From positions 25,823-89,822 of the forward strand of contig JBAZKP010000003.1 in the NCBI GenBank assembly GCA_041650735.1: 64,000 bases of DNA, read 5' to 3'. Shown here piece after piece: positions 33,929 to 64,000 of the stretch. Made by a program: the position numbers and the translations under genes. The notes under the pieces are model-generated. The model worked only from the letters and a program-made list of their open reading frames with translations, had not been told where the DNA came from and did not search any database. This DNA comes from an archaeon (GTDB lineage Archaea; Iainarchaeota; Iainarchaeia; Iainarchaeales; JAAZKV01). How positions within the stretch are numbered: position 1 is the stretch's first letter; each line of letters opens with the position of its first letter.

Positions 33929-34273
33929 CTATTTAATTCCTAGAATTTCTTTTAGTTCTGAGAAAAAATTTTTTGCCATTTGGGGTGTCTTATGTATTGC
34001 TCCTTTAGTATTGTATTCTGTATTATCAGGCGGGATTAATCCTTCAGCAAATTGCTTTGAAAAGCCTTTTACATATGAATCATATTTCGCTTCAGGATGG
34101 GTTGTCTCTGCTTTTTTCAAATCTTCCCACGCTTGTTTTGTTTGTTTTTTTGCAGGATTGTAAAGTAGAACAATTATTGCTATTATGAGGAAAACAAATC
34201 CCAGCCATTCAACTTTGAAGTATAGAAATAGTAGTGCAATAATGAGTGCTGTTATGAATGAATAAAAGTTCAT
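33929..34273 (-). CDS. Small membrane protein (2 TM plus soluble tail)
   Basis: 114 aa. It is the last gene of the minus-strand block. Confidence 0.6.
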   Translation of the reverse strand: MNFYSFITALIIALLFLYFKVEWLGFVFLIIAIIVLLYNPAKKQTKQAWEDLKKAETTHPEAKYDSYVKGFSKQFAEGLIPPDNTEYNTKGAIHKTPQMAKNFFSELKEILGIK

Positions 34274-34302
34274 ACAATCCCTTTTTTTTTAATTAATATA
34301 AA

Positions 34303-34620
34303 TTATTCCATTCCGGGCATTCCGCCCCCCATTCCGCCTAGTAATCCTGCGTATGGATCAGCAGGGGCTTCTTCTTTTCCTAAGCCAAGTAGATAAGCTA
34401 TTCCTAGTAAAAGAAATATTGCAAATATCCAGTATTCTTTCATCCCCATTCCGTTTACAACATATAAAACAAAAACCGATAGTATAAGTAAGAGGCTTGC
34501 TTTGATATCTTTTGAAGCGAGTACTAATATTAGGGTTGCGCCAATTACTATCCAGAATTCTCCTAGTTGAACCGCAAATCCCAGTAGAGTTACTGATATT
34601 AGGAATGTTAGTAAATCCAT
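34303..34620 (-). CDS. Small polytopic membrane protein with a Gly/Met-rich tail
   Basis: 105 aa, 3 TM, with the C-terminus 'GLLGGMGGGMPGME'. It is preferred over the overlapping out-of-frame ORF 34358-34678. Confidence 0.6.
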   Translation of the reverse strand: MDLLTFLISVTLLGFAVQLGEFWIVIGATLILVLASKDIKASLLLILSVFVLYVVNGMGMKEYWIFAIFLLLGIAYLLGLGKEEAPADPYAGLLGGMGGGMPGME

Positions 34621-34637
34621 TTGTTACACCAAACTTG

Positions 34638-34922
34638 TTACTTTGATTTAGGCACTTTTTCAAGTAAATCTTTTCCAAAGATTGACCACAAGAATAATAT
34701 GAATGGCACCCAAATTAATTCGGGAAACTGGTAAAAAAGCAGGTATGTGATTAGTATTGTTAGTAATATCCCTAGTTTTGCCCCTACTTGTTTTTTTGCC
34801 CAAGCATATATCCAGAGAAAATAAATAATGAATAGGATTAGTGTTAGGGTGAGGAAAAAATCTCCTCCTTCAAGTGCTCCAATGAAATCTATTTCCATTA
34901 TAGGTATTTCCATGGTATTCAT
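34638..34922 (-). CDS. Small polytopic membrane protein
   Basis: 94 aa, 2-3 TM. Confidence 0.6.
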   Translation of the reverse strand: MNTMEIPIMEIDFIGALEGGDFFLTLTLILFIIYFLWIYAWAKKQVGAKLGILLTILITYLLFYQFPELIWVPFILFLWSIFGKDLLEKVPKSK

Positions 34923-34972
34923 CCTTCCTTTTCTAAATATTATTGTTTTCGGTGATTTATTAATCTACCTTA

Positions 34973-35305
34973 TTATGGTCTTGGCTTGGTTAGGTCCATT
35001 ACTGTTTTTGACCCCCATGTTAGTATACTAAATATTCCAAAGGTTGCAAGGGTTATCGCAAACCACCCTGTAGCGCCTATCCACCACCATTTTATTACTA
35101 AAAAATAAATTAGTATTCCTGAAATAATGAGTGTTAGCACCCCATTTCCAAGATAGCCTTTTACTGTACTAAATATCACAAATATTAGCATTATTTTTAC
35201 TATAATATCTATTGGCGGAAAAATATACATTAGTGCGGGTAACATGAAAACTAGTACCACCATTAGAACTATTGCTATTAATATGAAGTTTCCTTTTTCA
35301 TTCAT
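34973..35305 (-). CDS. Small polytopic membrane protein (paralogue of 35367-35804)
   Basis: 110 aa. 'FSTVKGYLGNGVLTLIISGILIYFLVI' aligns with 'ISYVTQHLGKGPLSLMIIAVLSYFIIF' of the neighbouring gene. Confidence 0.65.
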   Translation of the reverse strand: MNEKGNFILIAIVLMVVLVFMLPALMYIFPPIDIIVKIMLIFVIFSTVKGYLGNGVLTLIISGILIYFLVIKWWWIGATGWFAITLATFGIFSILTWGSKTVMDLTKPRP

Positions 35306-35366: not shown

Positions 35367-35804
35367 TTACACCATTCTTGTTCTTCTTCTCATATCCATT
35401 AATCTTTTCTGTCTTTCCTTCATATCTTGCCCATTTGGCTGATTCTCTACATCTCCCCCAGCCATATTTTGTTCCATAGCTGCTTGGGGGGCAAGGATAA
35501 AGAAATCCATTAATAATTGTGTTACTCCAAACAGTACAAGCATATACAATACATATATCCCGCCAAATATCATAAAGTAATCGAATATTATGAAATATGA
35601 TAGCACTGCTATTATCATTAATGATAAAGGTCCTTTTCCTAAGTGTTGGGTTACGTAAGATATTATTGTTAATAGTACAAATATTTTGAGTACTAATGTC
35701 ATGTCTGAGAATAGTTCATCAATCAGAAGCATGAAGGGCAGGATATTTGTCATCGCCATCATAGGAAAAGCAAGAATTGCCATACTAGTAATAGGTTTTT
35801 CCAC
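35367..35804 (-). CDS. Small polytopic membrane protein with a basic C-terminal tail
   Basis: 145 aa, 4 TM. The tail is 'KERQKRLMDMRRRTRMV'. Confidence 0.65.
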   Translation of the reverse strand: MEKPITSMAILAFPMMAMTNILPFMLLIDELFSDMTLVLKIFVLLTIISYVTQHLGKGPLSLMIIAVLSYFIIFDYFMIFGGIYVLYMLVLFGVTQLLMDFFILAPQAAMEQNMAGGDVENQPNGQDMKERQKRLMDMRRRTRMV

Positions 35805-35860: not shown

Positions 35861-38800
35861 TTAGTTTGCTCCAACTAATTCTAGTTCTTTGTTTGCCAGA
35901 CTATTTGTTGAACCTGTAGTGTTTTCTATCACTGCTGGATTCCACCAGAAGCTTGTTGATGAACCATCACTTGATACGCATACTTTTCCTTCTTGTACTG
36001 CATCAAACAAATCTTGCAGTGATTTCATGTATGAATTGTTTTGTAAGCTATTGTATTTCATTCCAGGTATTCCTAAGAGTTCTGCCGTTGAATTAAATTC
36101 ATTGCTTGTTGTCCAGAAGCTTGTGCCCACATCATTGGATATTAATCCATATCTTGATTCATCGTGTGGAATGAAGAATATTGATTTTAAGTACATGTTT
36201 CCTGCTCTTGTTGCATCATTGAACTCAAACCCGTAAACATTTTCCCCTAATTTGCTTAATCTATAATCAGGTGAATTGCTGTACACTTCCACCGCATTGC
36301 TTCCATAAAAGTCCTTGCTTTTTGCTGCCCCTGTCCAGTAACTTAAATTGCCTCCTGTGCTTACCGCTTTCTTTGTATTTTCTACACTGAATGCCATGTT
36401 GCCTGATGTTCCTTGTAATGTTTGTTTTGCAATTACTGGTGTAGCATAATTTGGAGTTAAAACTAATTCAGCTGTGCTCCCAGTAACAGTTGCTGATGCT
36501 AGCTGTCCTCTTGAGGCAACTGATGAATTAAGTGCTTCGAAATTTGTTTTTGTTTTTGTTGTAATACTTGTTACTCCATTGCTTGCAGCATTATTAAAAG
36601 TCAAAACCCTATTGTCGAAATTGCTTATTGTTATTTCTTCTTCATCATTATTCATATATACGCTTCCATACCCTTGTCTTCCTCCTTTTTCCCCAAGCAC
36701 TCCATCAAATGGCATACTGTAGAATGGGCTGTCCACACTTGGTTTTTTTACTAAAAGCAATGTTACCTCAATATTAGTATTATTTCCATCTATTACCCTG
36801 AAATTATCTTTTGCATTAAGATTCACGTACACATCATACAATCCTGGTTCTATTGTATTATCTCCAGAGAATTTTTTCTTTATCTTAAAATTACCTGAAG
36901 TTAAATAATCAACTATGTCTTTTTGTTTTGAATTAACATTTAATCCTTGCAATAATGTTTCTCTGTAATGTTGTTTGAAATCATTAAAGAAATCTTCAGT
37001 GAATGCATCTTTTGTTAAATAAACTCCGAAATTAATTGTATTATATAAATCCGTTTCATCCTGCACTGCATCAGTGTAAGTTATGCTATCAATATTTGCA
37101 ACGTAATACATTAGTCCTGGCAAACCAGCTATTGATTTTGTTGTTTGCGGCATCCAGCAATTATTATCCATTTCTCTGTTTATGAATGCTCTTGAAATAG
37201 TTTTCTTATCCGTGCTTCCAGGACCGTTTACTACTGCTGTAAAGAAATATAATCCTTCATATTCCGGTGTCTCTGCTTCAAAGGTTGTTTCACTTTCTCC
37301 CGAAGGCACTGTCCATTGTTTTACATCCGTTGCTGGCTCACCTTCTCCTTTCCATGCAACTGACATGTATGTTGTTACATCTGCCCCAGTATTGTTTTTT
37401 ACTTTTACTGTTGCGATAGTAATATCTGTATCCAAATTAGTGCTTATTGTAATATCTTCTATTCCCACAAATCCTTCTGCAACAGTTAATTTTTGTGAAT
37501 TTATTTCATCAATCGTATCAGTTACTTGTTGTTGTATTATGTCAGGCGGACAAGAAAACTTGCTTCCATTATTTGCCATGAATTCATCAAGGTTAGCCAG
37601 TTTTTTTGTTAATGCTATTAGGAATTGTGTTGCATCACAATAAACATATTCTGGGTTCATGTAATCGCATTGATCTGCAGAAATAGCATCCCATGACCAA
37701 TCTAATTTTATTCTTGGTAGTGCTTCTTTTCCTGTTGCTCCTGTTAGTGCCCCAAAGTAACATGAATTAGCTTTCTTTATGTATGCTTCTTCTCCACTTG
37801 GTTCTCCTGATATTACTCTTAAATGGTATTTTTGTGAGTAAGTTGATTCGCTTACTCCGTTGCATAAACCTGCATCCTCTTCTGCCCCTACCCAATAATT
37901 TCCAAATGTTGGCTTAAAGCATTGTACATCATAATCAAATTCTGTTCCCGCGCTTGTGGAAGTATTTTCTCCATCCACTGAATGTATTTGTTTTCCATGG
38001 TTGTGTACTGTTGCTCCTATTGTTAGTGTTCCATATCTTGGCTGTGGATCATTTAACCCATCATTAGTGAATTTTAGTGCAACTGTTTCTTCTGAACTGT
38101 ATTGTGCATCAGTGAAATCCCATTCAGAGCCAATTCCTTCTAAAGTAAATGTTAATTCTCCTGCATCTGGTGGAACTACTTTTTGTGCTGACCCATTCTC
38201 ATCCTCGCTTCCTGATGGAGGAGTTACTCCAACAGTTGTTCCTTGTAACAAAATAACAAAATCATCATAAGGCACTGTCTGGAAATGCTCATCACATTTA
38301 TATAAATCCGCATTTCCCATTAAGTAACCGCCAATAACCGCACCAATAATTGTTGTTGACGCTTGGAACCAGTTAAAAGAACCTGAAGTTGTGGTTGTGC
38401 TACCAAAATGAGCTACAGGAACTTTTTGATTAATAAAATCTGATGCTGATGCCCCTGGCTCTTTACTAGTATCCTTCCAGGTATCATAGGTAGTGTCTCG
38501 TACAATTGGAGGAATATTAGTAGTACTTGTACCCCCAATGTCATCCCATGTTGTTGAAGTTGATTTCACTGGTTTAGCTGCACCCCAAGTATGTCTTCCA
38601 ATCCAATTATGGATTTTACCAGTAAAACTATTGTTATAAGCTGAAATCGCCGAAGTTGCTTTTGATGAAAATCCACTTATCGAATCAGATTCTATAGTTG
38701 TTCCATTAACTGTCCCTCTATATCCATATGTGCCATTACCTGCATCATATCTTTGAACATCTATTGTTCCAAGAGTTCCATCACCTTTTGAATAATTTAC

Positions 38801-43475: not shown

Positions 43476-43895
43476 TCACGTCAAATCAGCCAATTCAAGC
43501 ATTTGCTTGGTATTTAGGACTTTTACAACTTTTTGTTTTTTTAACTCGCTGTCATTTGACCAAAGCACAGCGTTTTTGTATTGTAAACAGCATGCAATGA
43601 ATGGAGCATCATCAATATCCAGTCCCTTCAATATCTCTTTTGCAGTCAAGTAATGCTCACTTATTTCTAAAGAGGGTACTATTTGTACTTTTTGCATTAA
43701 AAGGAATAAAACTTTGTTAAGATTTTCTTCCGAGAGTCCTGATTTTTTTAACACTAATTCCTTATGCTCTTCTAGTTCATCAAGTACTGCTGAAGGCAGT
43801 AAGAACTCAAGTTCACTTACAAGAATAATTTTTCTTGTAAGCGAGTCTTTTATGATTGCAGAGAACAAAATATTAGAATCAATGATGAACTTCAT
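43476..43895 (-). CDS. vapC: PIN-domain ribonuclease (VapC-like toxin)
   Basis: 139 aa. 'MKFIIDSNILFSAI' carries the first acidic residue, with 'DDAPFIACCL' and 'WSNDSEL' near the C-terminus. It overlaps the upstream antitoxin-like gene. Confidence 0.75.
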   Translation of the reverse strand: MKFIIDSNILFSAIIKDSLTRKIILVSELEFLLPSAVLDELEEHKELVLKKSGLSEENLNKVLFLLMQKVQIVPSLEISEHYLTAKEILKGLDIDDAPFIACCLQYKNAVLWSNDSELKKQKVVKVLNTKQMLELADLT

Positions 43896-44112
43896 TCAAA
43901 AACCTTTTCGCAGCAAGCGAATTGATTTTTTTTCCAAGTTCCAAAGCATCTTTTTCGGTGAGTTTGCTGTTTTTCAGCAATTCATCTGCCATTCGCAGGG
44001 TTTCAATTTTTTTGATTACTGCTTGTCTTGCAACTTCACTCCATTTTACTTCAGGGAATTTCTTCATTTCTTCTTGAATTTCCTTCGGCATGGACAAAGT
44101 CATATTACCCAT
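43879..44112 (-). CDS. Putative VapB-like antitoxin
   Basis: About 77 aa, 'MGNMTLSMPKEIQEEMKKFPEVKWSEVARQAVIKKIE...'. It overlaps the PIN gene start by 17 nt, which is the typical type II TA arrangement. Confidence 0.65.
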   Translation of the reverse strand: MGNMTLSMPKEIQEEMKKFPEVKWSEVARQAVIKKIETLRMADELLKNSKLTEKDALELGKKINSLAAKRFLNEVHH

Positions 44113-44317
44113 AAAATCACAAATATATATGTGCAAACACATATTTAATTGTTTTGGAATAAAACCAATTCACCAAAAATAATTTTCCAAAATCAATATT
44201 TATACTTTTGCGGAGTTGTATGCCGGCTAATAAAATTATTTTAAATTTCGTTAATTCAAAAACATGTCCAGGAAAATGGGTTTAATAGAAATAGTTTCTA
44301 GTTTTAACAGAATTAAT

Positions 44318-53533: not shown

Positions 53534-53728
53534 CTAAACACCTTGTTGCTTTTCAGCAAAAATAAAAGAATTATTAATTTTTATGCAGGCCAAAACTTGT
53601 CCAAGCAAAACCTTAGGTTCGTAGCAAAAGCATTGGCTTTTGCGTCGCCCTGCAAACTTTGTTTGCATGGTTGCGGGACCCGTAAAACGTCGCTACATTT
53701 TACTTGGTCCAGGTTTTTGCGTTCAAAT

Positions 53729-56700: not shown

Positions 56701-59700
56701 TTACTTTTACTTCACCGATTTTTTTCTTTGTTTCTTGTGTTCCTGCTGGTTTTGCATTCACAACTATTTTATATTTTCCCAGTACATATCCTGGATCAAC
56801 TATTACTGTTGAATCAGAGTCTTTTCCTATTGTGAATTTTTCTTCTGAAACATTTATTCTTGCATCAGGATCCAAATCTATGTCTACATCAACTGCACAG
56901 GTATTCTTTATTGTGAATGCGTTTTGTTGGTAACTCATTGTTCTTTGTGTTCCTTGTTGCCCTGAATAATTATTAAAATTATTTGCATATCCTGTTCCGT
57001 ATCCTTGGGCTCCATATCCTGTCATGCCCATTCCTGCCATTGTTGTTCCCTGCATTCCGTATGGTGAGCTTTGTCTTGAGAATCCTCCATAGCTTTGTCC
57101 ATAAGCTGACATTGATGAAGCATAATCTGATGCCATTAGTGCTCCGTATCCCATGTTCCATGGTGCAACATCAAGGAGTATTCCTCCTTCTGGTTGTTCT
57201 ATTTCAATGCATTTTGATAAGCTGCTCATAGTTACTTTTGTTTTTATTTGTGCTTCAGTTTTTTCTTCTGTCTTATCCTCTAAAATATTTTTTCCTATTA
57301 TTGATATTGTGAATTCTTGTGTTCCTGAAGCTATTGCAGTGTTTGGTGCAAATCTTACTGTTAGTGTTTCTTCTCCTTCTCTATCAAAGTAATCAGCTAT
57401 TTTTGTGTAAGTGTTTCCTAGTGAAGCATTAGTGAATCCTTTTCCACTTATTGATATTGTTCCGAATTTTGATTCTTCGCTTAGTTTTGCCTCTAAATTA
57501 TGCAATGGTATTTCTATTCCTTCTGCTGTACAGGAATTTGTTATTGTTACTGTTAGGCTTTGTTCTGAATCTGATGTAATGAATTCAAGTGAGGCTGGTG
57601 TTACTTTCAAGCATTTAGCACTATCCATATATCCTGGCATTGTTAATCTTATTTCTACAGGTATTTCGTTACTGAATGATTGTGTTGTACCCGTTATTTC
57701 AGTATTTACCAGAATTGTTCCTGTAACATCTTTTGGTTCTTGTAATCTTAGCGCATTGCTTGTTAATTTCATTGATAACGTATAGTTTCTGTCTTTTCCC
57801 TGTTCGATTACTGTTCCTGCAATGTTTCCGCTAAATTTTGTTTCCAAGTAATTCTTTAATTCCCCATTAATTTCAGTGCTTGTAATTTTAATGTCTTTTG
57901 CTGTATTGTTTTGCATTAATATTGTTTCCTCAATTGCTGTTACTTCTCCGATTTTTATTGTTTCGCTTATTTCAGGAGGAGTTATTGTTAGCAATGCTTT
58001 ATCCACTTTTTTTGTTATTTCAACCTCATCATATCCTTCTTTTTTTGCGGTAATCGTTAATTCGTCCCCTATTTTTGGTGAAGCTAATTCATATTTTGCT
58101 AATCCTTCTCCTGTTGTTTCTACTGACCCAAGGATATCTTTTCCTGATTTTATTGTTATTAGCACTCCATCAATGCTTTCATTGCCGTCTTTTGCTTCAA
58201 AGAATAATGTGTTGTTTATGTAAGGGATTATCATTTTTGGGAGCATATCTAAAGTGAATTTTTTGTTTGCTTTTACATTAACAGTTATTGTGTCTTCCAA
58301 CTCTGTTTTTGATACAGAGCTTATAGTGAGTTTTATTCCTGATGTTCCTGAAGAGGTTGTGCTGAAAAGTACTTGTACTCTTAGTGGTGCATCTATTCCT
58401 AATGTGCCTAAATTAATTGTTTTATCTGTTTGTTCTGAACCATTTACACTTATTGCGTTAACATCAAGGCTTTTCCCTTCTACTACTAGTACTGCTCCTG
58501 TCATTGCTCTTCCGCTATAATTAGTCAAATCAGCTGTAAGCAAATATTGAGTATCTTTTTTTGCTTCTACTGTGCCTGTTACATATTTCTTTTTTCCTGC
58601 TTCTGAGCCTTCAGTTGCTTCTATTGTGTATGATTTGCAGAAGCTTCCTGAGCATAAATTTCCTGCTCCCGCTAATAGTACCCTGTTTTTTGCTGCTGAG
58701 TATAATTCGTTTGATGCTGGTGTTGTCATTGCTGGGTCGCGTATTACTGTTGCTCCTTTTGCCCAGCCTCTGTAAAATAAATTTAGTGGTGCGTTTGGAT
58801 TTGCTTCAATAACAGTTATTTCTGCCTCTACTTCGTATGTTCCTTCTTGAGGGTTTTTCCATACTGAATTAGCCCATTTTGAGTTTCCTTGCACCAAGTT
58901 CTTTGAGTCTTTTTCATATCCTGTTGGTGGAGAATAAGTTGTTCCTTGTGTTGTTCTTCCTGAGCTTTCAACTTTGCTTAAGTATAATCCATCTTCTTCC
59001 ATTAGGTTTGTTACTCCTTGTTCTTGTTTTCCTGTTCTCAAGTGTATTCCTGCTTCTGAGTAAGATCCTTTTGGAACTTGCAGGATTGCTTTTACTGTAT
59101 AAACTCCTTGGCTTACCGTGCCTGCTGTTTCTGAATCATCTTTTGTTTCAGATACTACTGCAGTTCCGCTGTATACTCCTACAAGGCTTGCTGTTAATTG
59201 TGCAACTGGTTTTACGAGTATTACTTCTTTATCTGTGGTAGCATTAGCAATTGGGTAAAATGCAGAGGTAAAATATTTTGAGTAACCCGAGCTTTCAATT
59301 ACAAAATATATTTTCTTGTCCGCTCTTATTGTAAATGATGCTGTGCCTTCTGTTGTTGTTAGAATTGATGCTCCTTCTTGTGTTGAAGTGTAATAATTAA
59401 TTGCTTTTACGCTTACCCCGCTTAAAGGATTCTTTTCATTATCCATTGCCTTAACTTTTATTGTTCCTTCCCCTATATCGAAAACAACTTCAAGTGTTTT
59501 TTGTGTTCTTGGCACTATTTGAATATTTGTTGAGTTAACGCTTCCAAATCCTTCTTTTGAAACAGTTGCCATGTATGATTTGCCTAATTCCAAATTAAAG
59601 AATTCTGCTTCTCCTGTTGCCCCAGTTGTTTTTTCTCCCACCACAGGCTCTTGTGGATCAATTTTTTTCAGTATTACTCTCGCATTATCAACAGGATTTT

Positions 59701-60991
59701 TTTTGCCATCAATTACTCTAACAAGAATTGAGTTATTGTTTGTTTCATTTACTTTAGTTAACAGTACCTCAATTACTTCTCCCGAGGTTGCTCCTTTTGT
59801 TTCCCCTATAAGGTAATCTGGGTGATCAACTGTTAATATGTAATTTGAGCTGTCTGCCACATCGAATTTTGCTTGCCCTGTTGCCCCTGTTATTTTTGTT
59901 TTTACTTCATTGCTGTTCGTTGCTAGAGTTAATTTTACCTCTGCTCCTGAAACAGGATTGCTTGTCAATGAATCTTTTACATTAATTATTATTGTTGATT
60001 TCTGTACTTTTCTCAAGCTTACATTAAATTCTGTCAAAGTATCTTTTGTTACTTCTTTTACTTCCCCTAATTTGCTTCCATCATAATCAGAATAATTTCC
60101 GTCAGAGGAACTTATCAAAACATAATATTTTTTTACTGGAACACTGTCAAATGTTACTATTGCTGTTCCTGTTGAAATATTTTCTAATGGATAAGTATTG
60201 TCTAGTGCAACTAATTTTACTCTTAGCCCTGCAGGAACGCTCGTTGATCCTTCAACTGAAATATTTACATTTACTTTTCCTACTACTTGTACTTCTTGTT
60301 CTACTGTTACCGCGCTGCTTCCTGAGAATGATGCTGTTGCATTCACAACCCTATAGTTCTGCATGCTCATTACTTCTATTTCTTGACAAGATGCGCTTAC
60401 TTTTGCATCAAAAGATCCATTAGTATAAGTTGCAACTGATTCATCTGCTGAGCCTTTGCATTTGTAAATTAGTGTTCCTGTTCCGCTTATCAGTGACCCA
60501 TCAGCTGTTTTCAAATAAACTGCTTTGGATATTGTTGCGTCTTCTAAACTTAAAACAAATTCTTCCTCATCATTACTGCTAAGGATTACCTCTCTTGTCT
60601 GGCTTGCGTGATTATCTTTATCTATTTTTATTGAGTAAGTCCCATTAGCCAAAAACATTATTGCTTTTCCATCTGCTCCTGTTTGAATATTCGCTTTTTC
60701 TACCCCATCCGCAAGTGCTATTACTGTTGCCCCTTCTAACGGGTTGCTATCTCCATCAGTCACAAGTATTGTCAGGGATGAATTATTTCCTGATGTAATG
60801 AAGAATATTACTAGTAAAAGTAGAACTAAAACAAGTACAATTGCTAAAGGAAATGTAGGGATATTTTTATCTTCAAGTGAATCAATTAAATTCCCAAAAG
60901 GGGGTACTTTTTCTGAAATCCCATCAACAAAGTCATACCATTTATCCTCAAGAGAATAGTATGTTTCTTTCAGTGATTCAATTACAGCCAT
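53729..60991 (-). CDS. Giant membrane-anchored surface protein, paralogue 3 (~2420 aa)
   Basis: A 7.3-kb ORF. The N-terminus 'KETYYSLEDKWYDFVD...IPTF' is followed by a TM segment and beta-sandwich repeats. It has a central G/Y/Q/M-rich low-complexity segment and the C-terminal ending 'LINEVKEERACAV..GIIWN', homologous to paralogues 1 and 2. The ATG at 60991 aligns with the paralogues (the track GTG is at 61000). Confidence 0.9.
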   Translation of the reverse strand: MAVIESLKETYYSLEDKWYDFVDGISEKVPPFGNLIDSLEDKNIPTFPLAIVLVLVLLLLVIFFITSGNNSSLTILVTDGDSNPLEGATVIALADGVEKANIQTGADGKAIMFLANGTYSIKIDKDNHASQTREVILSSNDEEEFVLSLEDATISKAVYLKTADGSLISGTGTLIYKCKGSADESVATYTNGSFDAKVSASCQEIEVMSMQNYRVVNATASFSGSSAVTVEQEVQVVGKVNVNISVEGSTSVPAGLRVKLVALDNTYPLENISTGTAIVTFDSVPVKKYYVLISSSDGNYSDYDGSKLGEVKEVTKDTLTEFNVSLRKVQKSTIIINVKDSLTSNPVSGAEVKLTLATNSNEVKTKITGATGQAKFDVADSSNYILTVDHPDYLIGETKGATSGEVIEVLLTKVNETNNNSILVRVIDGKKNPVDNARVILKKIDPQEPVVGEKTTGATGEAEFFNLELGKSYMATVSKEGFGSVNSTNIQIVPRTQKTLEVVFDIGEGTIKVKAMDNEKNPLSGVSVKAINYYTSTQEGASILTTTEGTASFTIRADKKIYFVIESSGYSKYFTSAFYPIANATTDKEVILVKPVAQLTASLVGVYSGTAVVSETKDDSETAGTVSQGVYTVKAILQVPKGSYSEAGIHLRTGKQEQGVTNLMEEDGLYLSKVESSGRTTQGTTYSPPTGYEKDSKNLVQGNSKWANSVWKNPQEGTYEVEAEITVIEANPNAPLNLFYRGWAKGATVIRDPAMTTPASNELYSAAKNRVLLAGAGNLCSGSFCKSYTIEATEGSEAGKKKYVTGTVEAKKDTQYLLTADLTNYSGRAMTGAVLVVEGKSLDVNAISVNGSEQTDKTINLGTLGIDAPLRVQVLFSTTSSGTSGIKLTISSVSKTELEDTITVNVKANKKFTLDMLPKMIIPYINNTLFFEAKDGNESIDGVLITIKSGKDILGSVETTGEGLAKYELASPKIGDELTITAKKEGYDEVEITKKVDKALLTITPPEISETIKIGEVTAIEETILMQNNTAKDIKITSTEINGELKNYLETKFSGNIAGTVIEQGKDRNYTLSMKLTSNALRLQEPKDVTGTILVNTEITGTTQSFSNEIPVEIRLTMPGYMDSAKCLKVTPASLEFITSDSEQSLTVTITNSCTAEGIEIPLHNLEAKLSEESKFGTISISGKGFTNASLGNTYTKIADYFDREGEETLTVRFAPNTAIASGTQEFTISIIGKNILEDKTEEKTEAQIKTKVTMSSLSKCIEIEQPEGGILLDVAPWNMGYGALMASDYASSMSAYGQSYGGFSRQSSPYGMQGTTMAGMGMTGYGAQGYGTGYANNFNNYSGQQGTQRTMSYQQNAFTIKNTCAVDVDIDLDPDARINVSEEKFTIGKDSDSTVIVDPGYVLGKYKIVVNAKPAGTQETKKKIGEVKVTVRKLGDIDTDCIKTNVTKISLNSFIYKPQKYSVYNYCYDQGVQLSRSNVATIECSAPQSQYGVSAQYFQQGAESAYSSSYPLGGQYGSYQNYIQPNGCAASNCSLITGTRVRNRTVQQGNNGSIERVDFEVMPSAQYIPQRKLFNSSNGSYGLFQNLGDIRQWATETDARTNVYGNLNISYTNQYNSAECMEFPITLSDIWRLGESIDSAINWGDPNAKAKDCQNKNALDIQDYWASKGVTLGAIPDEQYNGSSYKYIAEPPALRIGAAPSTASSAYPSYDLYYYRSKQMENTSDKSSGEASKNCGLFDSITVKTPIVPAEKAGGAIIRILETGTGSLFNNTRGSNLMVEVDRSGLIANCVYVEMPVSGKVTRAVNFDSTELVWTLKVLITKQNYKPTTIEECTKVIPVAGNDCEDKLKAEIATRKLTLKSTNVEKQAAVDIVLKANPACVSFINIGTVDRLLIEAEAKGTCESGDYKEYGFDKIKYTGLEIPSTEISTYCTNNFCNSEQLQLFLYNRIQTIKDLSSAYSGVKLSELYKQVQKQTVKSCTESDLSFYKGDIGLAMDNSYKLEISNTDVKNTIISKNNDLALDVMVNVLNDQKDKDKLLLEIDDKTELASDLTNLGMAKVGAKWYMSVKRYVELLKAANAVAECKLDDKSCNIVLCGSAVELKLDTFKWMSEHARIKKGVIEKTEMSKEDIEVIYAQNSSLNSIHKNATAKVLLTKINSFEKLSLTITGNLSNIIKEYTIKFVDTSKEIGNYPVELDYVLGTDKEVTATFGEKSAVTGATKATSNILLQAGFKTDSVDSAKILDNATKAIAVEKTKEGKIVSYQRVPVLLKLNLYGNETRASYKVISDTIKVPTELVNWYVAGVLKGADMLSGGSYVIPIAPSQTPQELKGILYAPQKISIAFNSAKVGGTITMQVLAVSPEPKTRTSALSTQTSTPIEIEAFNSGDLTLEKLINEVKEERACAVQDGIIWNEKKLLQGN

Positions 60992-61098
60992 TCCAACCAC
61001 TTAATATCCGTCCCCAATACCACTTATTCACTATAATACTATAATATTCAAGCCTTTATTAATTTAACTTTGCTCTATTTGCCGGAGTTCTTCAATAA

Positions 61099-62541
61099 TT
61101 ATGCCTCTTCGCATTTACCAGAGCCTGAAGAGCATTTTGGCATCGGATTAGGGTATTCACTTTGATTCATAATTCTTTCAAAACTTGAATCCTCTATCCT
61201 TATTTTGTATAAATCGCTTCCATCACTGTATGTTCCTTTTACTATGTACAAAGGGTTTGTTTCTTTGTATACTATATCCGCACGAACCAAGGTTATTCTT
61301 CCACAGTATAATTTTGTCCCCGAATTTGGTCCTGAAAAAATTTCTCTTGTTGGTTCTGTCCCTGTACCAATAATTAATTCGTTGAATCCACAACGATCTA
61401 TGTCGGCTTCCCTTTGGTCGTCTATTTCCAGAACGGTGTCAAGAATTGTAAATTTTCCGCCATCATTATCCACTGAAAAAGCTCCTTGTTCATTTGCTCT
61501 TCCGCAAACATTTACTGCCGCATATGCCTTAACCCCTTTTTCTCCTGCAGAGGGTCCTCCTGAAAGATAAGAAGTTACTCCCGCCATTGTATCCGCTAAT
61601 GGGACATCTGACCCAGTGCCTGATCCCGGGCAATCTTTGCCCAAATCAACCGTGCTTCCTTTGTCCCTCGGATCATTGTTTGGGTGACAGGCATCACAAA
61701 AACCTAGTTTATATTCTTTCAAATCACTATGCGCAATTGATATTGCTTCAGCACTTTTTTTTGCCTCGTATAAAACTTTAAAAAATCTTAATGGGATATA
61801 AACCTTCAAATTTGTTCTTGGCAATATAGCCATTTTTATTTCTTCTTGTGTCACTAAATCTTTTACTATTATTCTTGGCAATGATTCATATTCTTCATCA
61901 TTTAATTTGTTTAAAGGAATATTGAAATAAAATGTTCCCACGGGACAAGAGGTATCATCGCATCCTACTACTTCCAAAAAATTATCCGGCATGGTGTTTA
62001 CTGAATCTGTTATTGCTTTTCCCAAAACTTCTTTTGCCTTATAACTCTTATCGCTTAAGTAAACACTGAATCTTCCGTAAGTGCCTTCATTGAACTGGTC
62101 TATTGTTCTATCTGCAACAAAGGTTGTTGCTGAACCAAAACCACTGTCTCCGCTTGCTTCATCTTTCAAGAGGATTACATCTTCAAAAGTTTTTTTCAAA
62201 TCATCAAAAGTTATTGTTTCCCCTTCCCTTCTTATACTGAACAAAGTTAATCCGCTTTCATTATCCCTCATTTGGCCGCTATCATGTGTCAAATATTCTT
62301 CTAGTTTTTCCCTAAATGCAAAATTAAATGTCTGTAATGCATCTGCTCTTGCAATATTCGCTGCATCCGCTAACTGGTAATTATTTAGCATTGAATAAAT
62401 CTGTCTGTTTGTTTTTTCTTCAGTGGTTATGAGCGTGCTTGTCATCACCACTCCAACCATTATTAGGATTATGGCAACAATTGCCGAAAACATATTGAAT
62501 CCGTGTTCAGAAAAAGCTTTTACTTTAACAAATTTTTTCAT
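61099..62541 (-). CDS. Hypothetical secreted or membrane-anchored protein with a pilin-like hydrophobic N-terminus
   Basis: 480 aa. 'MKKFVKVKAFSEHGFNMFSAIVAIILIMVGVVMTSTLITTEE' has a short basic leader, a Gly, and then a ~22-aa hydrophobic helix. The remainder contains several Cys pairs and matches no recognised domain. Confidence 0.7.
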   Translation of the reverse strand: MKKFVKVKAFSEHGFNMFSAIVAIILIMVGVVMTSTLITTEEKTNRQIYSMLNNYQLADAANIARADALQTFNFAFREKLEEYLTHDSGQMRDNESGLTLFSIRREGETITFDDLKKTFEDVILLKDEASGDSGFGSATTFVADRTIDQFNEGTYGRFSVYLSDKSYKAKEVLGKAITDSVNTMPDNFLEVVGCDDTSCPVGTFYFNIPLNKLNDEEYESLPRIIVKDLVTQEEIKMAILPRTNLKVYIPLRFFKVLYEAKKSAEAISIAHSDLKEYKLGFCDACHPNNDPRDKGSTVDLGKDCPGSGTGSDVPLADTMAGVTSYLSGGPSAGEKGVKAYAAVNVCGRANEQGAFSVDNDGGKFTILDTVLEIDDQREADIDRCGFNELIIGTGTEPTREIFSGPNSGTKLYCGRITLVRADIVYKETNPLYIVKGTYSDGSDLYKIRIEDSSFERIMNQSEYPNPMPKCSSGSGKCEEA

Positions 62542-62659
62542 TCAAATCAGGATACAAAGAGTTAAACTGGTTAAAATAGTTAATCTTTTTACTGGCGTTG
62601 TAGATTAATGCTCTTTTAGGTGTTTTCACCCCAATTTGTTTTTTGAGGGCATTCCTCGT

Positions 62660-64000
62660 TTAAGATGCTGGTTGTATGTTTGGTGATTTGTCTTCGCTTA
62701 CCATTTGCCAGAATGCAAGTACTTTCAGGAATTTATCAGCTTCTTTTTCCCCTACTTTGAATACTTTTTTCACTGATTCTTTTGTTAGTTTCCCGCTTGA
62801 GGAGTTTCTTTCCGCCACTAATTTTGTAACTTTGTCTTTTAATGCTCCGTTGTATTCTTTTGCTTCTTTTTCCAGTCCTGGTCTTATCTCATCCCAATCA
62901 TACAGCATTGTTGCTATTACTAGTCCTTCTTCTGCTCCACCAATTTTGCTTCCATCAACAATTGTGTAATTGTAAATTAATTCTTCAATTTTGCTGTCCT
63001 TTAGTGTTGAAATTTGTTTTTGATATTCTTTTTCTTCGTAAGGATACTTGTAATCAAGCATACTGTTTTTTGCAGCAGCCATATCTGTTTTTAGTTTCCA
63101 TAAGCTTAGTGGTCTTTCTGATGGATCTTTTTCTTTAGGATTAATTGCTTGCCATGTAATTACTTTGCCGTTGTTAGCGCTAATTTTTGTGCTCATTTCT
63201 TTTGCATCTTTAACAGGATCTTTTTCATTTAATACTATGCTCCATTCTCCAAGGGTTTTAGTAATCTTTAATTCGTATTGCTTGTTTTTTGTTAAAGCCA
63301 TGTCTTGGTTAAGGAGTTTGAATGATTTTTTCTTCAAAGCATCCATTTCTCCGTTTAATTCTTTCTCATAAGCCCATTCGCCGGCAGCGTTTGCTAAGAA
63401 TGCACAGCCAATTCCTTTAGCGAGATTCACTCCTGCTGAGCGCAGCCTGTTGTTCATGCTGATTTTTTGTGCTTCTGCCTCTAAAGCTTTTATTTTGCCC
63501 TTAACTGTTTTATTAGAATTCTCTTTCACAATCTTCGCCATCCCATCCAAATTTGCTGAGCTTACTTCAACACCAAATATGTCGTCAACCAATCCACTGA
63601 CATCAAATTTGGCTGTTGCTTTTGCATCCTCTCCAAGTACATATTTTCTTTCTTTTATCCTATCCCACGCTGAGCTAGTCATATCTTTCCCGGTTGCTCT
63701 TTTATACAAGGATTTAACTTGTGCCTCAATTTTTGATACTTGGGTTGTATTATTTTTTCCTGTTGCACTGTCCCTAATCAGATTAGTCAAGTCATTCTGG
63801 AATGAAGTTCTTTCTTTTAATATTACCATGTTAGTTATAGCTGTTTTCAAAGCTTTTGATTGGGTGCTGCTCCCATTAACTTTTAGCAAGAGATCATCCA
63901 TCGAATCTGTGGGGTCTGCGCCAATTAATTTGTGCAACCATGTTGAGCCACTCGAGTCAGCTTCAAGCAGGATTTTTACAAATTCTTCGTCCGCTGCTTT
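62660..64000 (-). CDS. Hypothetical large protein, 5'-truncated by the window edge
   Basis: The track ORF starts at a TTG (63937). The frame remains open to position 64000 (KAADEEFVKILLEADSSGSTW... precedes it), so the gene continues beyond the window. It is mostly K/E-rich and helical with one short hydrophobic patch 'GIGCAFLANAAG'. Confidence 0.7.
   Translation of the reverse strand, partial: KAADEEFVKILLEADSSGSTWLHKLIGADPTDSMDDLLLKVNGSSTQSKALKTAITNMVILKERTSFQNDLTNLIRDSATGKNNTTQVSKIEAQVKSLYKRATGKDMTSSAWDRIKERKYVLGEDAKATAKFDVSGLVDDIFGVEVSSANLDGMAKIVKENSNKTVKGKIKALEAEAQKISMNNRLRSAGVNLAKGIGCAFLANAAGEWAYEKELNGEMDALKKKSFKLLNQDMALTKNKQYELKITKTLGEWSIVLNEKDPVKDAKEMSTKISANNGKVITWQAINPKEKDPSERPLSLWKLKTDMAAAKNSMLDYKYPYEEKEYQKQISTLKDSKIEELIYNYTIVDGSKIGGAEEGLVIATMLYDWDEIRPGLEKEAKEYNGALKDKVTKLVAERNSSSGKLTKESVKKVFKVGEKEADKFLKVLAFWQMVSEDKSPNIQPAS

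What the first reader, a model, noticed from the sequence alone, without database searches (positions are those of the whole stretch)
33929..64000. A 30-kb single-strand block built around three paralogous giant surface proteins: candidate undescribed archaeal cell-surface or host-interaction system
Seen in the sequence:
- Thirteen consecutive minus-strand genes lie here with no plus-strand interruption.
- Three of them (35861-43396, 44318-52939, 53729-60991) encode about 2511, 2873 and 2420 aa. Together they occupy 23.4 kb, which is 37% of the window.
- The three are clear paralogues. They share the same N-terminal motif plus a single TM segment, and the internal blocks 'G(T/A)TY..P.GY.......KW(S/A)N..W' and 'YR(G/A)'. 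They also share many ~90-aa beta-sandwich repeats of the carboxypeptidase-regulatory/Ig-like kind, dense N-x-S/T sequons, and a common C-terminal ending.
- Each giant gene is preceded by its own AT-rich spacer with a TATA-like element.
- Around them sit five small polytopic membrane proteins, a 167-aa membrane protein, a 480-aa protein with a pilin-like N-terminus, and a protein of at least 447 aa that runs off the window.
- I could recognise no enzyme, transporter, secretion ATPase or S-layer family inside the block.

Inference: an apparently small-genome, AT-rich archaeon that spends this much coding capacity on anchored giant ectodomains plus conserved small membrane partners suggests a dedicated surface apparatus. 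Its role could be attachment to, or membrane contact with, a partner cell or substrate. I know of no described system with this composition.
Basis: partly seen in the sequence, partly recalled or inferred. Interest (0 to 1): 0.85.

Follow-up and report, generated by a model that had tools for sequence, protein, structure and literature searches.

The report
Conserved giant surface-protein gene cluster, Iainarchaeota
This is a real gene cluster of about 38 kb, found in the same order in dozens of tiny Iainarchaeota (DPANN) archaea, that encodes four huge membrane-anchored surface proteins plus small membrane partners; no paper I could find describes it.

Summary
The block is real and is not a chance juxtaposition.

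- **Extent.** All 13 minus-strand genes are present. The gene that runs off the window is a fourth paralogous giant (G0, 2948 aa).
- **Synteny.** The order G0, 480-aa protein, G3, 167-aa membrane protein, G2 recurs in every Iainarchaeota contig that reaches far enough (37 loci from genome assemblies, several more from metagenomes). G1 and the five small membrane genes follow in all five contigs that reach that far.
- **Neighbours outside the window.** Most relatives carry an exosortase/archaeosortase-family gene directly upstream of G0. A FlaI/GspE/CpaF-type ATPase lies divergently beside it.
- **Shared leader.** All giants share a new 45-residue N-terminal leader plus one TM helix. The leader heads 903 cluster representatives, all examined ones built of β-sandwich domains.
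- **The 480-aa protein.** It has a prepilin-like [KR]G|F N-terminus, a predicted 72-residue helix, and no fold match.
- **Strain variation.** The giant scaffolds are under purifying selection (pN/pS about 0.1). About 0.5-kb to 1.5-kb cassettes are replaced outright between strains 92-95% identical.
- **Corrections.** Sequons are not enriched. Few repeats are detectable by sequence. A PIN/VapB toxin-antitoxin pair was missed.

Function is inferred: a dedicated surface-fibril or coat apparatus. I found no description of it.

The parts
33929..34273 (-). g114: last gene of the cluster. A small membrane protein with an N-terminal hydrophobic region and a soluble C-terminal tail.
   Evidence: Translation and hydropathy. 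Orthologues sit at the same position in L001, L002 and L004 (36-50% identity to L002 and L004). No Pfam or NCBIfam family.
34303..34620 (-). g105: small polytopic membrane protein with about 3 hydrophobic segments.
   Evidence: Orthologues are 40-86% identical at the same position in L001, L002, L004 and L006. No family hit.
34638..34922 (-). g94: small polytopic membrane protein.
   Evidence: Orthologues are 47-82% identical in L001, L002, L004 and L006.
34973..35305 (-). g110: small polytopic membrane protein, a paralogue of g145.
   Evidence: It is 28.6% identical to g145 (E = 5e-6). Orthologues are 35-83% identical in five loci. No Pfam or PDB relative.
35367..35804 (-). g145: polytopic membrane protein with about 4 hydrophobic segments and a basic C-terminal tail. 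It is the first of the five small membrane genes after G1.
   Evidence: Orthologues are 36-75% identical in five loci.
35861..43396 (-). G1: giant protein of 2511 aa. It has the N-terminal leader plus one TM helix, the conserved scaffold, and the C-terminal module shared with G2.
43202..43396 (-). G1 N-terminal leader (about 44 aa, acidic, '...YYSLEEKWYSFWD...VIPSF') plus the hydrophobic helix.
   Evidence: Alignment A7. A profile of this region finds 903 cluster representatives, always at their N-terminus.
38297..39049 (-). G1 fast-evolving middle region, about aa 1450-1700. The boundaries are approximate.
   Evidence: Sliding identity against the L001 and L004 orthologues falls from 50-79% to 12-45% here.
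43476..43895 (-). PIN_2-domain toxin (VapC-like). It is a passenger insertion between G2 and G1, not a core part of the cluster.
   Evidence: Pfam PIN_2 E = 2.4e-27. It is absent at this site in L001 and L004. L002 carries a different toxin (PemK) at the same site.
43879..44142 (-). VapB/RHH-type antitoxin. It overlaps the toxin gene by 17 nt.
   Evidence: NCBIfam VapB E = 4.7e-6. It is 43% identical to the RHH_12 antitoxin at the same site in L002.
44318..52939 (-). G2: giant protein of 2873 aa.
   Evidence: 38 homologues, all about 2000-3000 aa except one of 1674 aa, from Diapherotrites/Iainarchaeum MAGs. Domain hits are CarboxypepD_reg and Ig-like only.
52745..52939 (-). G2 N-terminal leader plus TM helix.
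47005..48554 (-). G2 hypervariable cassette, aa about 1461-1978. It is rich in K, D, E and A and is probably helical.
   Evidence: There is no nucleotide similarity to a strain whose flanks are 94-95% identical, and the boundaries are sharp. Amino-acid identity is about 20% here against 96-100% in the flanks. GC matches the flanks.
44321..46642 (-). G2 C-terminal module, aa 2100-2873, with conserved Cys, Trp and Tyr residues. It is shared with G1.
   Evidence: AF2 model with pLDDT 81.3. Foldseek against the PDB gives only local beta-sandwich matches of about 120-140 aa, such as CARDB and transglutaminase barrels. A profile search of PDB sequences finds nothing.
50360..51322 (-). Conserved central domain of G2 ('G.TY.P.GY...KW...W...YRAW...C...FC'). 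It is shared by all four paralogue classes.
   Evidence: Alignment A1 of 18 sequences has invariant K and W and near-invariant Cys pairs. It has no PDB sequence relative. G0 and G2 are 28.8% identical here, E = 2e-15.
53030..53533 (-). g167: polytopic membrane protein between G3 and G2, with a TTG start.
   Evidence: Present in 14 of the 21 genome-derived loci that span the G3-G2 junction; a more diverged copy may be missed in the rest. Only 2 of 13 members give a weak SpoIIM hit, E = 0.033. No PDB relative.
53729..60991 (-). G3: giant protein of 2420 aa. Its C-terminal 650-700 aa evolve faster than the rest.
   Evidence: pN/pS is 0.12 against strain L045.
60791..60991 (-). G3 N-terminal leader plus TM helix ('...EDKNIPTFPLAIV'). 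Many G3 orthologues have [KR]G before IPSF.
61099..62541 (-). g480: 480-aa protein with a prepilin-like N-terminus ('..ERG|FNMFSAIVAIIL') and about 12 conserved Cys.
   Evidence: 81 homologues, nearly all 430-590 aa apart from two shorter entries, no Pfam domain. Alignment A4. AF2 pLDDT 87.2 with helix 13-84. No match in the PDB or BFVD.
62660..64000 (-). C-terminal 446 aa of G0, the fourth giant. The full gene is 2948 aa and runs to about coordinate 71506 beyond the window.
   Evidence: The window's own contig was recovered as L003. G0 has the same leader plus TM and the shared central domain.
63419..64000 (-). In-window part of a replaced cassette in the G0 C-terminal region. It covers G0 aa about 2375-2696 and continues to about 64381.
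   Evidence: There is no nucleotide similarity to a strain that is 90-92% identical on both sides.

Best explanation
The block is most of a phylum-wide, vertically inherited gene cluster of Iainarchaeota (formerly Diapherotrites, DPANN). It probably builds a dedicated cell-surface structure from four paralogous giant proteins.

**Shown**
- The core order is (archaeosortase-family gene, outside the window), G0, prepilin-like 480-aa protein, G3, 167-aa membrane protein, G2, G1, then five small membrane proteins.
- In most relatives a FlaI/GspE/CpaF-type ATPase is transcribed divergently from the 5' end.
- Every giant starts with the same acidic leader of about 45 residues ('YYxLE(E/D)KWYxxxD...(I/V)P(S/T)F') followed by one hydrophobic helix of 20-23 residues.
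- After the helix come 2350-2900 residues in which only beta-sandwich-type domains can be recognised.
- The scaffolds are under purifying selection, while middle or distal cassettes are swapped between near-identical strains.

**Inferred**
1. The leader stays in the cytoplasm, the helix anchors the protein, and the rest projects outward as a long fibril or coat element.
2. The shared leader is the handle by which one common membrane base recognises all four giants. The best candidates for that base are the six well-conserved small membrane proteins.
3. The prepilin-like protein may join the base through its long N-terminal helix. The neighbouring ATPase may power insertion or assembly, as in type IV filament systems.
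4. The archaeosortase-family enzyme would process or lipid-anchor a component that is not yet identified.
5. The swapped cassettes are the exposed parts. They would be under diversifying pressure from viruses, partner cells or surfaces.
For: **Synteny**
- Five further contigs were reached through G2-type and related giant homologues.
- 37 loci from GTDB species genomes were found with the g480 profile. Every locus that reaches far enough shows G0-g480-G3 and then G2, with g167 detected between G3 and G2 in 14 of the 21 that span that junction.
- Each window gene has a positional orthologue.

**Fourth giant**
-.

**Archaeosortase-family gene**
- It lies directly upstream of G0 in 11 of about 16 genome loci.
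- Starting from that gene instead, about 25 of 33 metagenome loci with enough DNA have G0 downstream.
- It scores 42.1 bits on the TIGR04178 signature against a cutoff of 23. Cys, Arg and His are invariant.

**ATPase**
- Pfam T2SSE. Nearest PDB sequences are 2oap, CpaF and FlaI.
- It lies divergent and adjacent in about 36 of 41 loci.
- A strain 92% identical to the window's contig continues ATPase | Art-like | UP | G0. The window's contig stops about 170 nt short of the Art-like gene.

**Leader**
- The profile finds 903 cluster representatives, always at residues about 1-70 apart from one at 148-209.
- The seven members scanned hold only CarboxypepD_reg and Ig-like domains.
- Ten members were looked up; five carry a source name, of which three are Diapherotrites/Iainarchaeum, one is an unclassified archaeon whose cluster also holds a Micrarchaeota-labelled sequence, and one is named only at cluster level as Diapherotrites.

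**g480**
- The [KR]G|F(N/T)(M/L)F(S/T)A motif is conserved in 44 aligned sequences. The model has a 72-residue N-terminal helix.

**Conservation and selection**
- Against the same genome (L001), four of the five small membrane proteins are 75-86% identical. The giants are 57-72% identical.
- pN/pS is 0.07-0.12 for the G2 and G3 scaffolds and g167.
- Cassette replacement is seen in G2 and G0. Faster regions occur in G1 and G3.
Against: - No expression, localisation or structural data exist. Everything about function is inference.
- Topology is not settled. The flanks of the TM helix carry no clear positive-inside signal, and the leader is acidic (read).
- The helix could be the core of a long cleaved signal peptide. 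Small residues follow it, for example ISA|N and SQA|T.
- No PilC/FlaJ-type platform protein and no prepilin peptidase were seen in any DNA held.
- g480 did not hit the Pfam Class_IIIsignal model. The canonical pilin-like proteins of this genome use a different signal, 'KAQG|(T/S)IEYL'. The ATPase may serve those proteins and sit beside the cluster only by conserved gene order.
- No cluster protein has the C-terminal motif-TM-basic signal that archaeosortases are known to use.
- The archaeosortase-family gene and the ATPase are missing next to G0 in a minority of loci, and neither lies in the window itself.
Confidence: 0.55

Rival explanations
1. The four giants are themselves the cell wall. 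They would form an S-layer-like lattice or canopy-on-stalk envelope, as tetrabrachion or SlaA/SlaB do, rather than accessory fibrils. The small membrane proteins would be the lattice anchors.
For: - The cluster is present in all Iainarchaeota lineages sampled.
- The four orthologous classes are kept distinct over deep divergence.
- The scaffolds are under strong purifying selection.
- S-layer proteins of many archaea are built from Ig-like domains (bioRxiv 10.1101/2024.05.28.596244, read).
Against: - There is no match to any S-layer family.
- Roughly 10,750 residues per set of subunits would be very costly for a lattice in a genome of about 1 Mb.
- The same preprint assigns S-layer proteins to other DPANN phyla through a different fold, the MSTP-like fold.
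- N-terminal anchoring of every subunit is unusual for S-layers (my own knowledge).
Confidence: 0.2
2. The leader plus helix is an extended, cleaved signal peptide. It would be analogous to the extended signal peptides of very large bacterial autotransporters or to the KxYKxGKxW signal. The giants would then be released or attached by other means, and the small membrane genes would be an export aid or unrelated.
For: - Small residues lie at -3/-1 after the hydrophobic stretch in G1 (ISA|N), G2 (SQA|T) and G3 (TSG|N).
- The leader is confined to very large proteins.
Against: - The hydrophobic stretch is 20-23 residues long, more typical of a membrane anchor than of a signal-peptide core.
- The residues after it are not conserved.
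- No cleavage predictor was available.
Confidence: 0.15
3. The genes are functionally independent surface-protein genes. Their shared order would reflect only common descent in slowly rearranging small genomes, and the ATPase and archaeosortase-family gene would be bystanders.
For: - All evidence for coupling is positional.
- The cluster tolerates unrelated insertions: toxin-antitoxin pairs and small ORFs.
Against: - The order is kept between lineages whose giants are only 22-30% identical.
- All genes lie on one strand with short spacers.
- The four giants share one specific leader.
- The adjacency holds when searched from g480 and also from the archaeosortase-family gene.
Confidence: 0.07
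4. Inside-out topology. The short acidic leader would be outside, and the giant beta-sandwich part would be cytoplasmic, for example as a cytoskeletal or scaffolding protein.
For: - The leader is net acidic.
- Neither flank of the helix is clearly positive (read).
Against: - CarboxypepD_reg, Big_1, SpaA, MG and CARDB-type domains are typical of extracytoplasmic proteins (domain biology from my own knowledge).
- So are conserved cysteine pairs.
Confidence: 0.03

Closest known systems
Archaeosortase/exosortase protein-sorting systems (for example ArtA with PGF-CTERM substrates)
   Same: - A small exosortase/archaeosortase-family membrane protein with invariant Cys, Arg and His is encoded at the head of the cluster in most relatives, next to very large surface proteins.
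- The giants carry a Pro-(Ser/Thr)-Phe motif directly before their hydrophobic helix. It looks superficially like PGF or PEF.
   Different: - No cluster protein has the defining C-terminal signal of motif, TM helix and basic tail.
- The conserved motif plus helix is at the N-terminus, so the known cleavage-and-lipidation chemistry cannot be transferred directly.
- The enzyme matches only the family signature. No named subfamily reaches its cutoff.
Archaeal type IV filament systems (adhesive pili, archaellum, bindosome) and bacterial Tad/T2SS
   Same: - A FlaI/GspE2/CpaF-like ATPase sits beside the cluster.
- g480 has a [KR]G|F-hydrophobic N-terminus and a long N-terminal helix, like a pilin.
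- The giants share the leader, hydrophobic helix and ectodomain layout of prepilins.
   Different: - No PilC/FlaJ/TadBC platform and no prepilin peptidase were seen.
- The giants' leader is about 45 residues long. G0 and many G3 orthologues have [KR]G before IPSF, while G1 and G2 lack it.
- The subunits are 5 to 100 times larger than pilins.
- The ATPase scores far below the FlaI equivalog cutoff (150 against 550 bits).
Giant repeat adhesins of bacteria (RTX/BIg adhesins such as LapA, SiiE and MpIBP)
   Same: - The overall logic is the same: a cell-proximal anchor, a long extender of beta-sandwich domains, and a distinct distal region.
- Some regions evolve fast.
   Different: - There is no sequence relation.
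- The host is an archaeon with no outer membrane and no type I secretion genes.
- There are four distinct conserved paralogues rather than one repeat-expanded gene.
- The domains are not near-identical tandem repeats.
SPEARE proteins of Nanohaloarchaeota (PMC6642349) and other giant DPANN or CPR surface proteins
   Same: - They are very large surface-associated proteins in an ultrasmall, small-genome DPANN archaeon.
- They take a large share of coding capacity.
- They are proposed to act in cell-cell contact.
   Different: - SPEARE proteins are defined by serine-protease, adhesion and restriction-endonuclease domains. None of these was found here.
- The present genes form a multi-gene cluster with a private N-terminal leader and conserved membrane partners.
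S-layer stalk/canopy proteins (tetrabrachion, SlaA/SlaB)
   Same: They are long, membrane-anchored, beta-rich envelope proteins in archaea.
   Different: - There is no sequence match at all, and Foldseek gives only local beta-sandwich matches for the one giant module modelled.
- The anchor is N-terminal.
- There are four giant paralogues.

Membership tests
Archaeosortase/exosortase sorting system | An exosortase/archaeosortase-family enzyme with conserved Cys and Arg (and His) | tested here: met
   The gene is not in the window. In relatives, TIGR04178 scores 42.1 bits against a cutoff of 23. Cys128, Arg170 and His190 are invariant in 11 sequences. It lies directly upstream of G0. A strain 92% identical shows it about 170 nt beyond the end of the window's contig.
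Archaeosortase/exosortase sorting system | Substrates with a C-terminal tripartite signal: short motif, TM helix, basic tail | tested here: not met
   A scan of all ORFs of 150 aa or more in the window and loci L001-L047 found none in any core cluster protein. G0 C-termini were checked in about 30 loci. The only two hits were neighbours in outlier loci L038 and L044.
Type IV filament system (archaeal pilus, archaellum, Tad) | A T2SSE-family hexameric ATPase | tested here: met
   It lies outside the window. Pfam T2SSE E = 1.3e-19. PDB 2oap E = 1e-30, followed by CpaF and FlaI. A Walker A motif 'GSRGSGKTS' is visible. It is adjacent in about 36 of 41 loci.
Type IV filament system (archaeal pilus, archaellum, Tad) | A polytopic platform protein of the T2SSF (PilC/FlaJ/TadBC) family | tested here: not met
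   None of the six small membrane proteins, their orthologues or the genes flanking the ATPase hit T2SSF in Pfam. Profiles of the small proteins found nothing in PDB sequences. Remote homology below HMMER sensitivity is not excluded.
Type IV filament system (archaeal pilus, archaellum, Tad) | Subunits with a class III (prepilin) signal cleaved by a prepilin peptidase | tested here: inconclusive
   g480 has a conserved [KR]G|F(N/T)(M/L)FSA(I/L)VA followed by a hydrophobic helix and a 72-residue N-terminal helix. It does not hit Pfam Class_IIIsignal. G0 and many G3 orthologues have [KR]G before IPSF, while G1 and G2 do not. No peptidase gene was seen. Cleavage cannot be tested here.
Characterised S-layer or adhesin protein families | A full-length or domain match to a described S-layer or adhesin family | tested here: not met
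   Pfam gives only generic CarboxypepD_reg and Ig-like hits. PDB sequence searches gave nothing for G2, the central domain or the C-terminal module. Foldseek gave only local beta-sandwich matches with query TM-score of about 0.1.
SPEARE giant proteins (Nanohaloarchaeota) | Serine-protease, adhesion and restriction-endonuclease domains in one giant protein (PMC6642349) | tested here: not met
   No protease or nuclease domain was found in G1-G3 or in the precomputed hits for G0.
Type II toxin-antitoxin (VapBC-like), for 43476-44142 only | A PIN-domain toxin with an overlapping upstream small antitoxin gene | tested here: met
   PIN_2 E = 2.4e-27. VapB E = 4.7e-6, below the curated cutoff of 60 bits. 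The genes overlap by 17 nt.

The most novel reading that the evidence does not exclude
This would be a previously unrecognised archaeal surface-assembly pathway with four working parts:
- A private N-terminal leader-plus-helix signal, found on about 900 clusters of large beta-sandwich proteins, would mark cargo.
- A type IV-filament-type ATPase would power assembly.
- An archaeosortase-family enzyme would act on a non-canonical, N-terminal substrate.
- A set of novel small membrane proteins would replace the usual PilC-type platform.

Together they would mount four giant proteins and a pilin-like protein of novel fold into one surface organelle. The exposed cassettes of that organelle are exchanged between strains.
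Probability: 0.25. Interest if true: 0.88.

Novelty: new variant of a known kind. Interest (0 to 1): 0.7.

Why it matters
- **Scale.** Iainarchaeota have genomes of about 1 Mb, judged from contigs of 0.98 and 1.03 Mb in relatives. This cluster takes close to 4% of such a genome and is kept across all sampled lineages of the phylum.
- **Biological role.** The cluster is probably central to how these cells meet their surroundings. Whether DPANN members such as Iainarchaeota live free or attach to hosts is an open question, and this cluster is a concrete candidate for the contact apparatus.
- **Cell-biology puzzles.**
  1. It has an unrecognised N-terminal signal shared by hundreds of large proteins.
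  2. It has an archaeosortase-family enzyme with no canonical substrate in sight.
  3. It has a type IV filament ATPase without a recognisable platform.
  4. It has a confidently predicted 480-aa protein with no fold match.
- **Strain variation.** The sharp cassette replacement between strains gives a ready marker for strain-level selection by viruses or partners in metagenomes.

Tried and rejected
1. A homologue search with the 446-aa C-terminal fragment of the run-off gene found nothing. The region is fast-evolving and rich in K and E. The gene was identified instead by recovering the window's own contig.
2. PDB sequence searches with G2, g480, the central-domain profile, the C-terminal-module profile and the small-membrane-protein profiles were all empty or noise.
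3. Foldseek of the G2 C-terminal model gave only generic beta-sandwich hits. Foldseek of g480 against the PDB and BFVD gave nothing. A viral origin was not supported.
4. Pfam and NCBIfam scans of the small membrane proteins gave nothing. The one exception was a weak SpoIIM hit in 2 of 13 g167 orthologues (E = 0.033), which I do not accept.
5. I considered that the giants carry archaeosortase C-terminal signals and rejected it.
6. I considered that sequon density indicates heavy glycosylation. I rejected it as a signal above chance.
7. The strongly folded hairpin-rich spacer between G3 and g167 (z = -3.9) is not conserved in relatives. I do not treat it as part of the system.
8. Literature searches for Iainarchaeota or Diapherotrites surface proteins, DPANN giant proteins and DPANN archaeosortases found no description of this cluster. 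The library covers open-access papers and bioRxiv only.
9. I rejected a mobile-element or chance reading because of the synteny and the purifying selection.

Full report
**1. Checking the observation**

The region 33929-64000 holds 13 consecutive minus-strand ORFs. Plus-strand ORFs there occur only as shadows inside the giant genes. GC content is about 35% across the whole window.

The organism is an archaeon. The rest of the window encodes a family B DNA polymerase, HisRS, HisIE, IMPDH and PurF. It also encodes three proteins with the canonical archaeal class III signal 'KAQG(T/S)IEYL'; a fourth (7193-9559) shares their N-terminal domain, but its listed ORF lacks the signal.

They are true paralogues:
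- BLASTP gives 22-25% identity over 1300-1550 N-terminal residues, with E-values of 1e-47 to 1e-69.
- G1 and G2 also share 27% identity over a C-terminal module of about 670 residues.
- Each giant has one strong hydrophobic segment at residues about 45-65.

Several details need correcting:
- Sequon counts (27-37 per protein) match composition-preserving shuffles (25-27 +/- 4.6). Only G3 is mildly high.
- Sequence methods detect only 1-4 CarboxypepD_reg-type repeats per giant.
- TATA-like hexamers in AT-rich spacers carry little weight.
- Two of the 13 genes are a PIN_2 toxin and a VapB-like antitoxin.

**2. The block continues beyond the window**

An exact look-up of the 480-aa protein recovered the window's own contig as L003, 97.7 kb long. 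The gene that runs off the window is a fourth giant, G0 (2948 aa). G0 has the same N-terminal leader and TM helix. It shares the central domain with G2 at 28.8% identity, E = 2e-15. Upstream of G0 lies a K/E-rich coiled-coil-like ORF ('UP'), which the contig end cuts.

**3. Synteny**

G2 has 38 homologues. All but one (1674 aa) are about 2000-3000 aa, all are unannotated, and they come from 'Candidatus Diapherotrites' or 'Ca. Iainarchaeum' MAGs. This is the phylum Iainarchaeota, placed by the NCBI taxonomy in the kingdom Nanobdellati.

Five contigs reached through those homologues show the same gene order. Every window gene has a positional orthologue there.

A profile of the 480-aa family was scanned against one genome per GTDB species and returned 37 loci. 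All are archaeal or Iainarchaeum MAGs, apart from a few contigs labelled as bacteria or Thaumarchaeota, which are probably mis-binned. Every locus that reaches far enough shows G0-g480-G3 and then G2, and g167 is detected between G3 and G2 in 14 of the 21 that span that junction.

The cluster spans about 37.6 kb in this strain. That is close to 4% of a genome of about 1 Mb, a size judged from the 0.98-Mb and 1.03-Mb contigs of relatives.

**4. Recognisable machinery at the 5' end, outside the window**

In 11 of about 16 genome loci with enough upstream DNA, the gene directly before G0 on the same strand is a membrane protein of 190-226 aa. It passes the NCBIfam exosortase/archaeosortase signature at 42.1 bits against a cutoff of 23, with weaker hits to XrtX, XrtH and ArtD. 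Cys, Arg and His are invariant.

I then started from this gene and scanned metagenome contigs, which gave 63 loci. About 25 of the 33 loci with at least 1.5 kb downstream have a G0-type giant with the leader on the same strand.

On the other side, transcribed divergently, about 36 of 41 loci carry a 771-aa ATPase:
- Pfam assigns it to T2SSE.
- The nearest solved sequences are Archaeoglobus GspE (2oap), CpaF and FlaI.
- It scores far below the NCBIfam FlaI cutoff.

A strain 92% identical at the nucleotide level to the window's contig reads ATPase | archaeosortase-like | UP | G0. The alignment shows that the window's contig stops about 170 nt short of the archaeosortase-like gene.

I saw no PilC/FlaJ-type platform and no prepilin peptidase anywhere.

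**5. The shared leader**

All four paralogue classes across the phylum begin with an acidic leader of about 45 residues, 'L(K/R)xxYYxLE(E/D)KWYxxxD...P.Y..ID..(D/E)..(I/V)P(S/T)F'. A helix of 20-23 hydrophobic residues follows.

A 64-position profile of this region was searched against 1.84 billion cluster representatives. It found 903 proteins at E <= 1e-3 and 454 at E <= 1e-10. Among the 150 best listed, the match lies at the very N-terminus in all but one (residues 148-209 in P0191). Lengths group at about 2200-3250, 1600-1830 and 1150-1360 aa, plus fragments. The seven members scanned contain only CarboxypepD_reg, Ig-like and macroglobulin-type domains. Of the ten looked up, five carry a source name: three are Diapherotrites/Iainarchaeum, one is an unclassified archaeon whose cluster also holds a Micrarchaeota-labelled sequence, and one is named only at cluster level as Diapherotrites.

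The leader is therefore a family-wide N-terminal signal or anchor for large beta-sandwich proteins. I found no described equivalent.

G0 and many G3 orthologues have [KR]G immediately before (I/V)P(S/T)F, which resembles a prepilin cleavage site. G1 and G2 lack it.

**6. The non-giant proteins**

The 480-aa family has 81 members. Nearly all are 430-590 aa (two shorter entries), none has a Pfam domain, and all are annotated as hypothetical. Its N-terminus is conserved as [KR]G|F(N/T)(M/L)F(S/T)A(I/L)VA followed by a hydrophobic helix, and about 12 cysteines are conserved.

AlphaFold2 run with a 44-sequence alignment gives pLDDT 87 and pTM 0.78. The model has a 72-residue N-terminal helix and an alpha/beta body. 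Foldseek finds nothing in the PDB (best E = 0.7) or in BFVD.

The six small membrane proteins have no family or PDB relative. g145 and g110 are paralogues. Against the same genome (L001), four of the five small proteins are 75-86% identical, more conserved than the giants at 57-72%.

**7. The giants' structure**

The G2 C-terminal module (774 aa) was modelled with 27 sequences at pLDDT 81. The model shows several strand-rich segments with interspersed helices. Foldseek gives only local matches of 120-140 residues to CARDB, transglutaminase-barrel, GH2 Ig-like and RbmA domains, with a query TM-score of about 0.1. No enzymatic domain was found in any giant.

**8. Strain-level cassette replacement**

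I compared the window with a strain 92-95% identical in DNA (L045, L046, L053):
- G2 is 96-100% identical in protein over residues 1-1440 and 2000-2873. It is only about 20% identical over residues 1461-1978.
- At the DNA level, similarity stops and restarts sharply at window 48554 and 47005.
- The cassette is rich in K, D, E and A and has the same GC content as its flanks. It has no close relative among 204 large proteins in hand; the only hit is 27% identity over 192 residues to P0005.
- G0 has a similar replaced stretch of about 960 nt.
- Against more distant orthologues, G1 has a variable region at about residues 1450-1700. G3 and G0 have fast-evolving C-terminal parts.
- The scaffolds are under purifying selection, with pN/pS of 0.07-0.12.

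Neutral drift cannot erase 1.5 kb while the flanks stay 94% identical. This is replacement by recombination or extreme diversification, and it points to exposed, selected surfaces.

**9. Interpretation**

What is shown is a conserved, co-oriented cluster of four paralogous giants with one private N-terminal signal, a pilin-like protein of unknown fold, six conserved small membrane proteins, and in most genomes an archaeosortase-family enzyme with a type IV filament-type ATPase next door.

What is inferred is that the giants are anchored N-in/C-out and project as long fibrils or a coat. The small membrane proteins, possibly with g480 and the ATPase, would form the base that recognises the shared leader. 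The swapped cassettes would be the exposed faces.

I put about 0.55 on this general reading and much less on the ATPase-driven mechanism. The rivals are an S-layer proper, cleaved and secreted giants, mere inherited gene order, and inverted topology. Each is listed in the report sections with its evidence.

**10. Comparison with known systems, and novelty**

The cluster fails the defining substrate test for archaeosortase systems, because no protein has a C-terminal tripartite signal. It lacks the platform protein that defines type IV filament systems. It has no relation to the domain set of SPEARE proteins (PMC6642349) or to S-layer families.

It works most like giant beta-sandwich adhesins on a membrane base, but with components borrowed from two known sorting and assembly families in a combination I could not find described. 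I file it as a new variant of a known kind, namely giant surface-protein systems of ultrasmall prokaryotes. There is a real chance, about 0.25, that it is a new assembly pathway.

Noticed in passing
window 43476-44142; L002 18270-18804; L005 24423-25122; L046 8280-9879: The cluster is a hotspot for small insertions.
- The window has a PIN_2/VapB-like pair between G2 and G1.
- L002 has a homologous RHH antitoxin at the same site, but paired with a PemK toxin.
- L005 has a DUF5678 gene plus an Asp_protease_2-like gene after G1.
- A strain 92% identical to the window has four small ORFs inserted between G0 and g480.
   Followed up: partly
window 53534-53728 (minus strand): The 195-nt spacer between G3 and g167 has 40% GC, unusually high for this genome. 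It folds into three or more consecutive hairpins (MFE -59.6 kcal/mol, z = -3.9). Related loci have unrelated AT-rich or very short spacers here, so it is strain-specific. It could be a small inserted element or a terminator array.
   Followed up: partly
window 6087-7160, 7193-9559, 19592-22609, 26627-27604 (all minus strand): Three large secreted proteins carry the canonical archaeal class III signal 'KAQG(T/S)IEYL', and a fourth shares their N-terminal domain of about 150 aa ('...SISEAVVD..GNGL...CSC.GF.G...C').
- One of 1005 aa has two LamG domains and a Cys/Trp-rich tail.
- One has an Lcl_C domain.
- One of 357 aa (6087-7160) has no other recognised domain.
- The 788-aa protein (7193-9559) has a Gly/Asn-rich repeat region; its listed ORF lacks the signal.

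They are the likely ordinary clients of a type IV pilus machinery.
   Followed up: no
L038 2-931 and L044 12166-13827: Two neighbours of leader-bearing or g480-type genes in outlier contigs end in a classic sorting-type signal.
- One ends '...QPSF-ELIGFAFLATAIVFSLIVLM-AKRRKKAD'.
- The other ends '...KIPF-ILWIAILLLLFGIIILV-NSVKKLGGNK'.

These could be genuine substrates of the archaeosortase-family enzyme in those lineages.
   Followed up: no
L030, L034, L038, L040 (record titles): Contigs that carry this Iainarchaeota-specific cluster are deposited in bins named Thaumarchaeota, Falkowbacteria, Chloroflexi and Chloroflexota. This probably reflects mis-binning.
   Followed up: no
window 61099-62541 compared with L045 468-1919: g480 is markedly more diverged from the near-identical strain (pS 0.37, pN 0.107, 84% aa identity) than its neighbours G3 and G2 (pS about 0.19, pN 0.013-0.022). 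This suggests either faster evolution or an allele exchanged by recombination.
   Followed up: no
window 31770-33251 (minus), 33381-33887 (plus), 31271-31744 (plus): The genes just downstream of the cluster have no family match: a 493-aa soluble protein and two Q/E/K-rich proteins that look like coiled coils. L002 and L004 also have an opposite-strand gene of about 165 aa right after the last small membrane gene, so this neighbour may be conserved too.
   Followed up: no
L053 1398-2720: A full-length serpin (Pfam E = 2.5e-115) lies about 7 kb upstream of the cluster in the closely related strain. It sits near a proteasome subunit and the aCPSF1/FttA termination factor.
   Followed up: no
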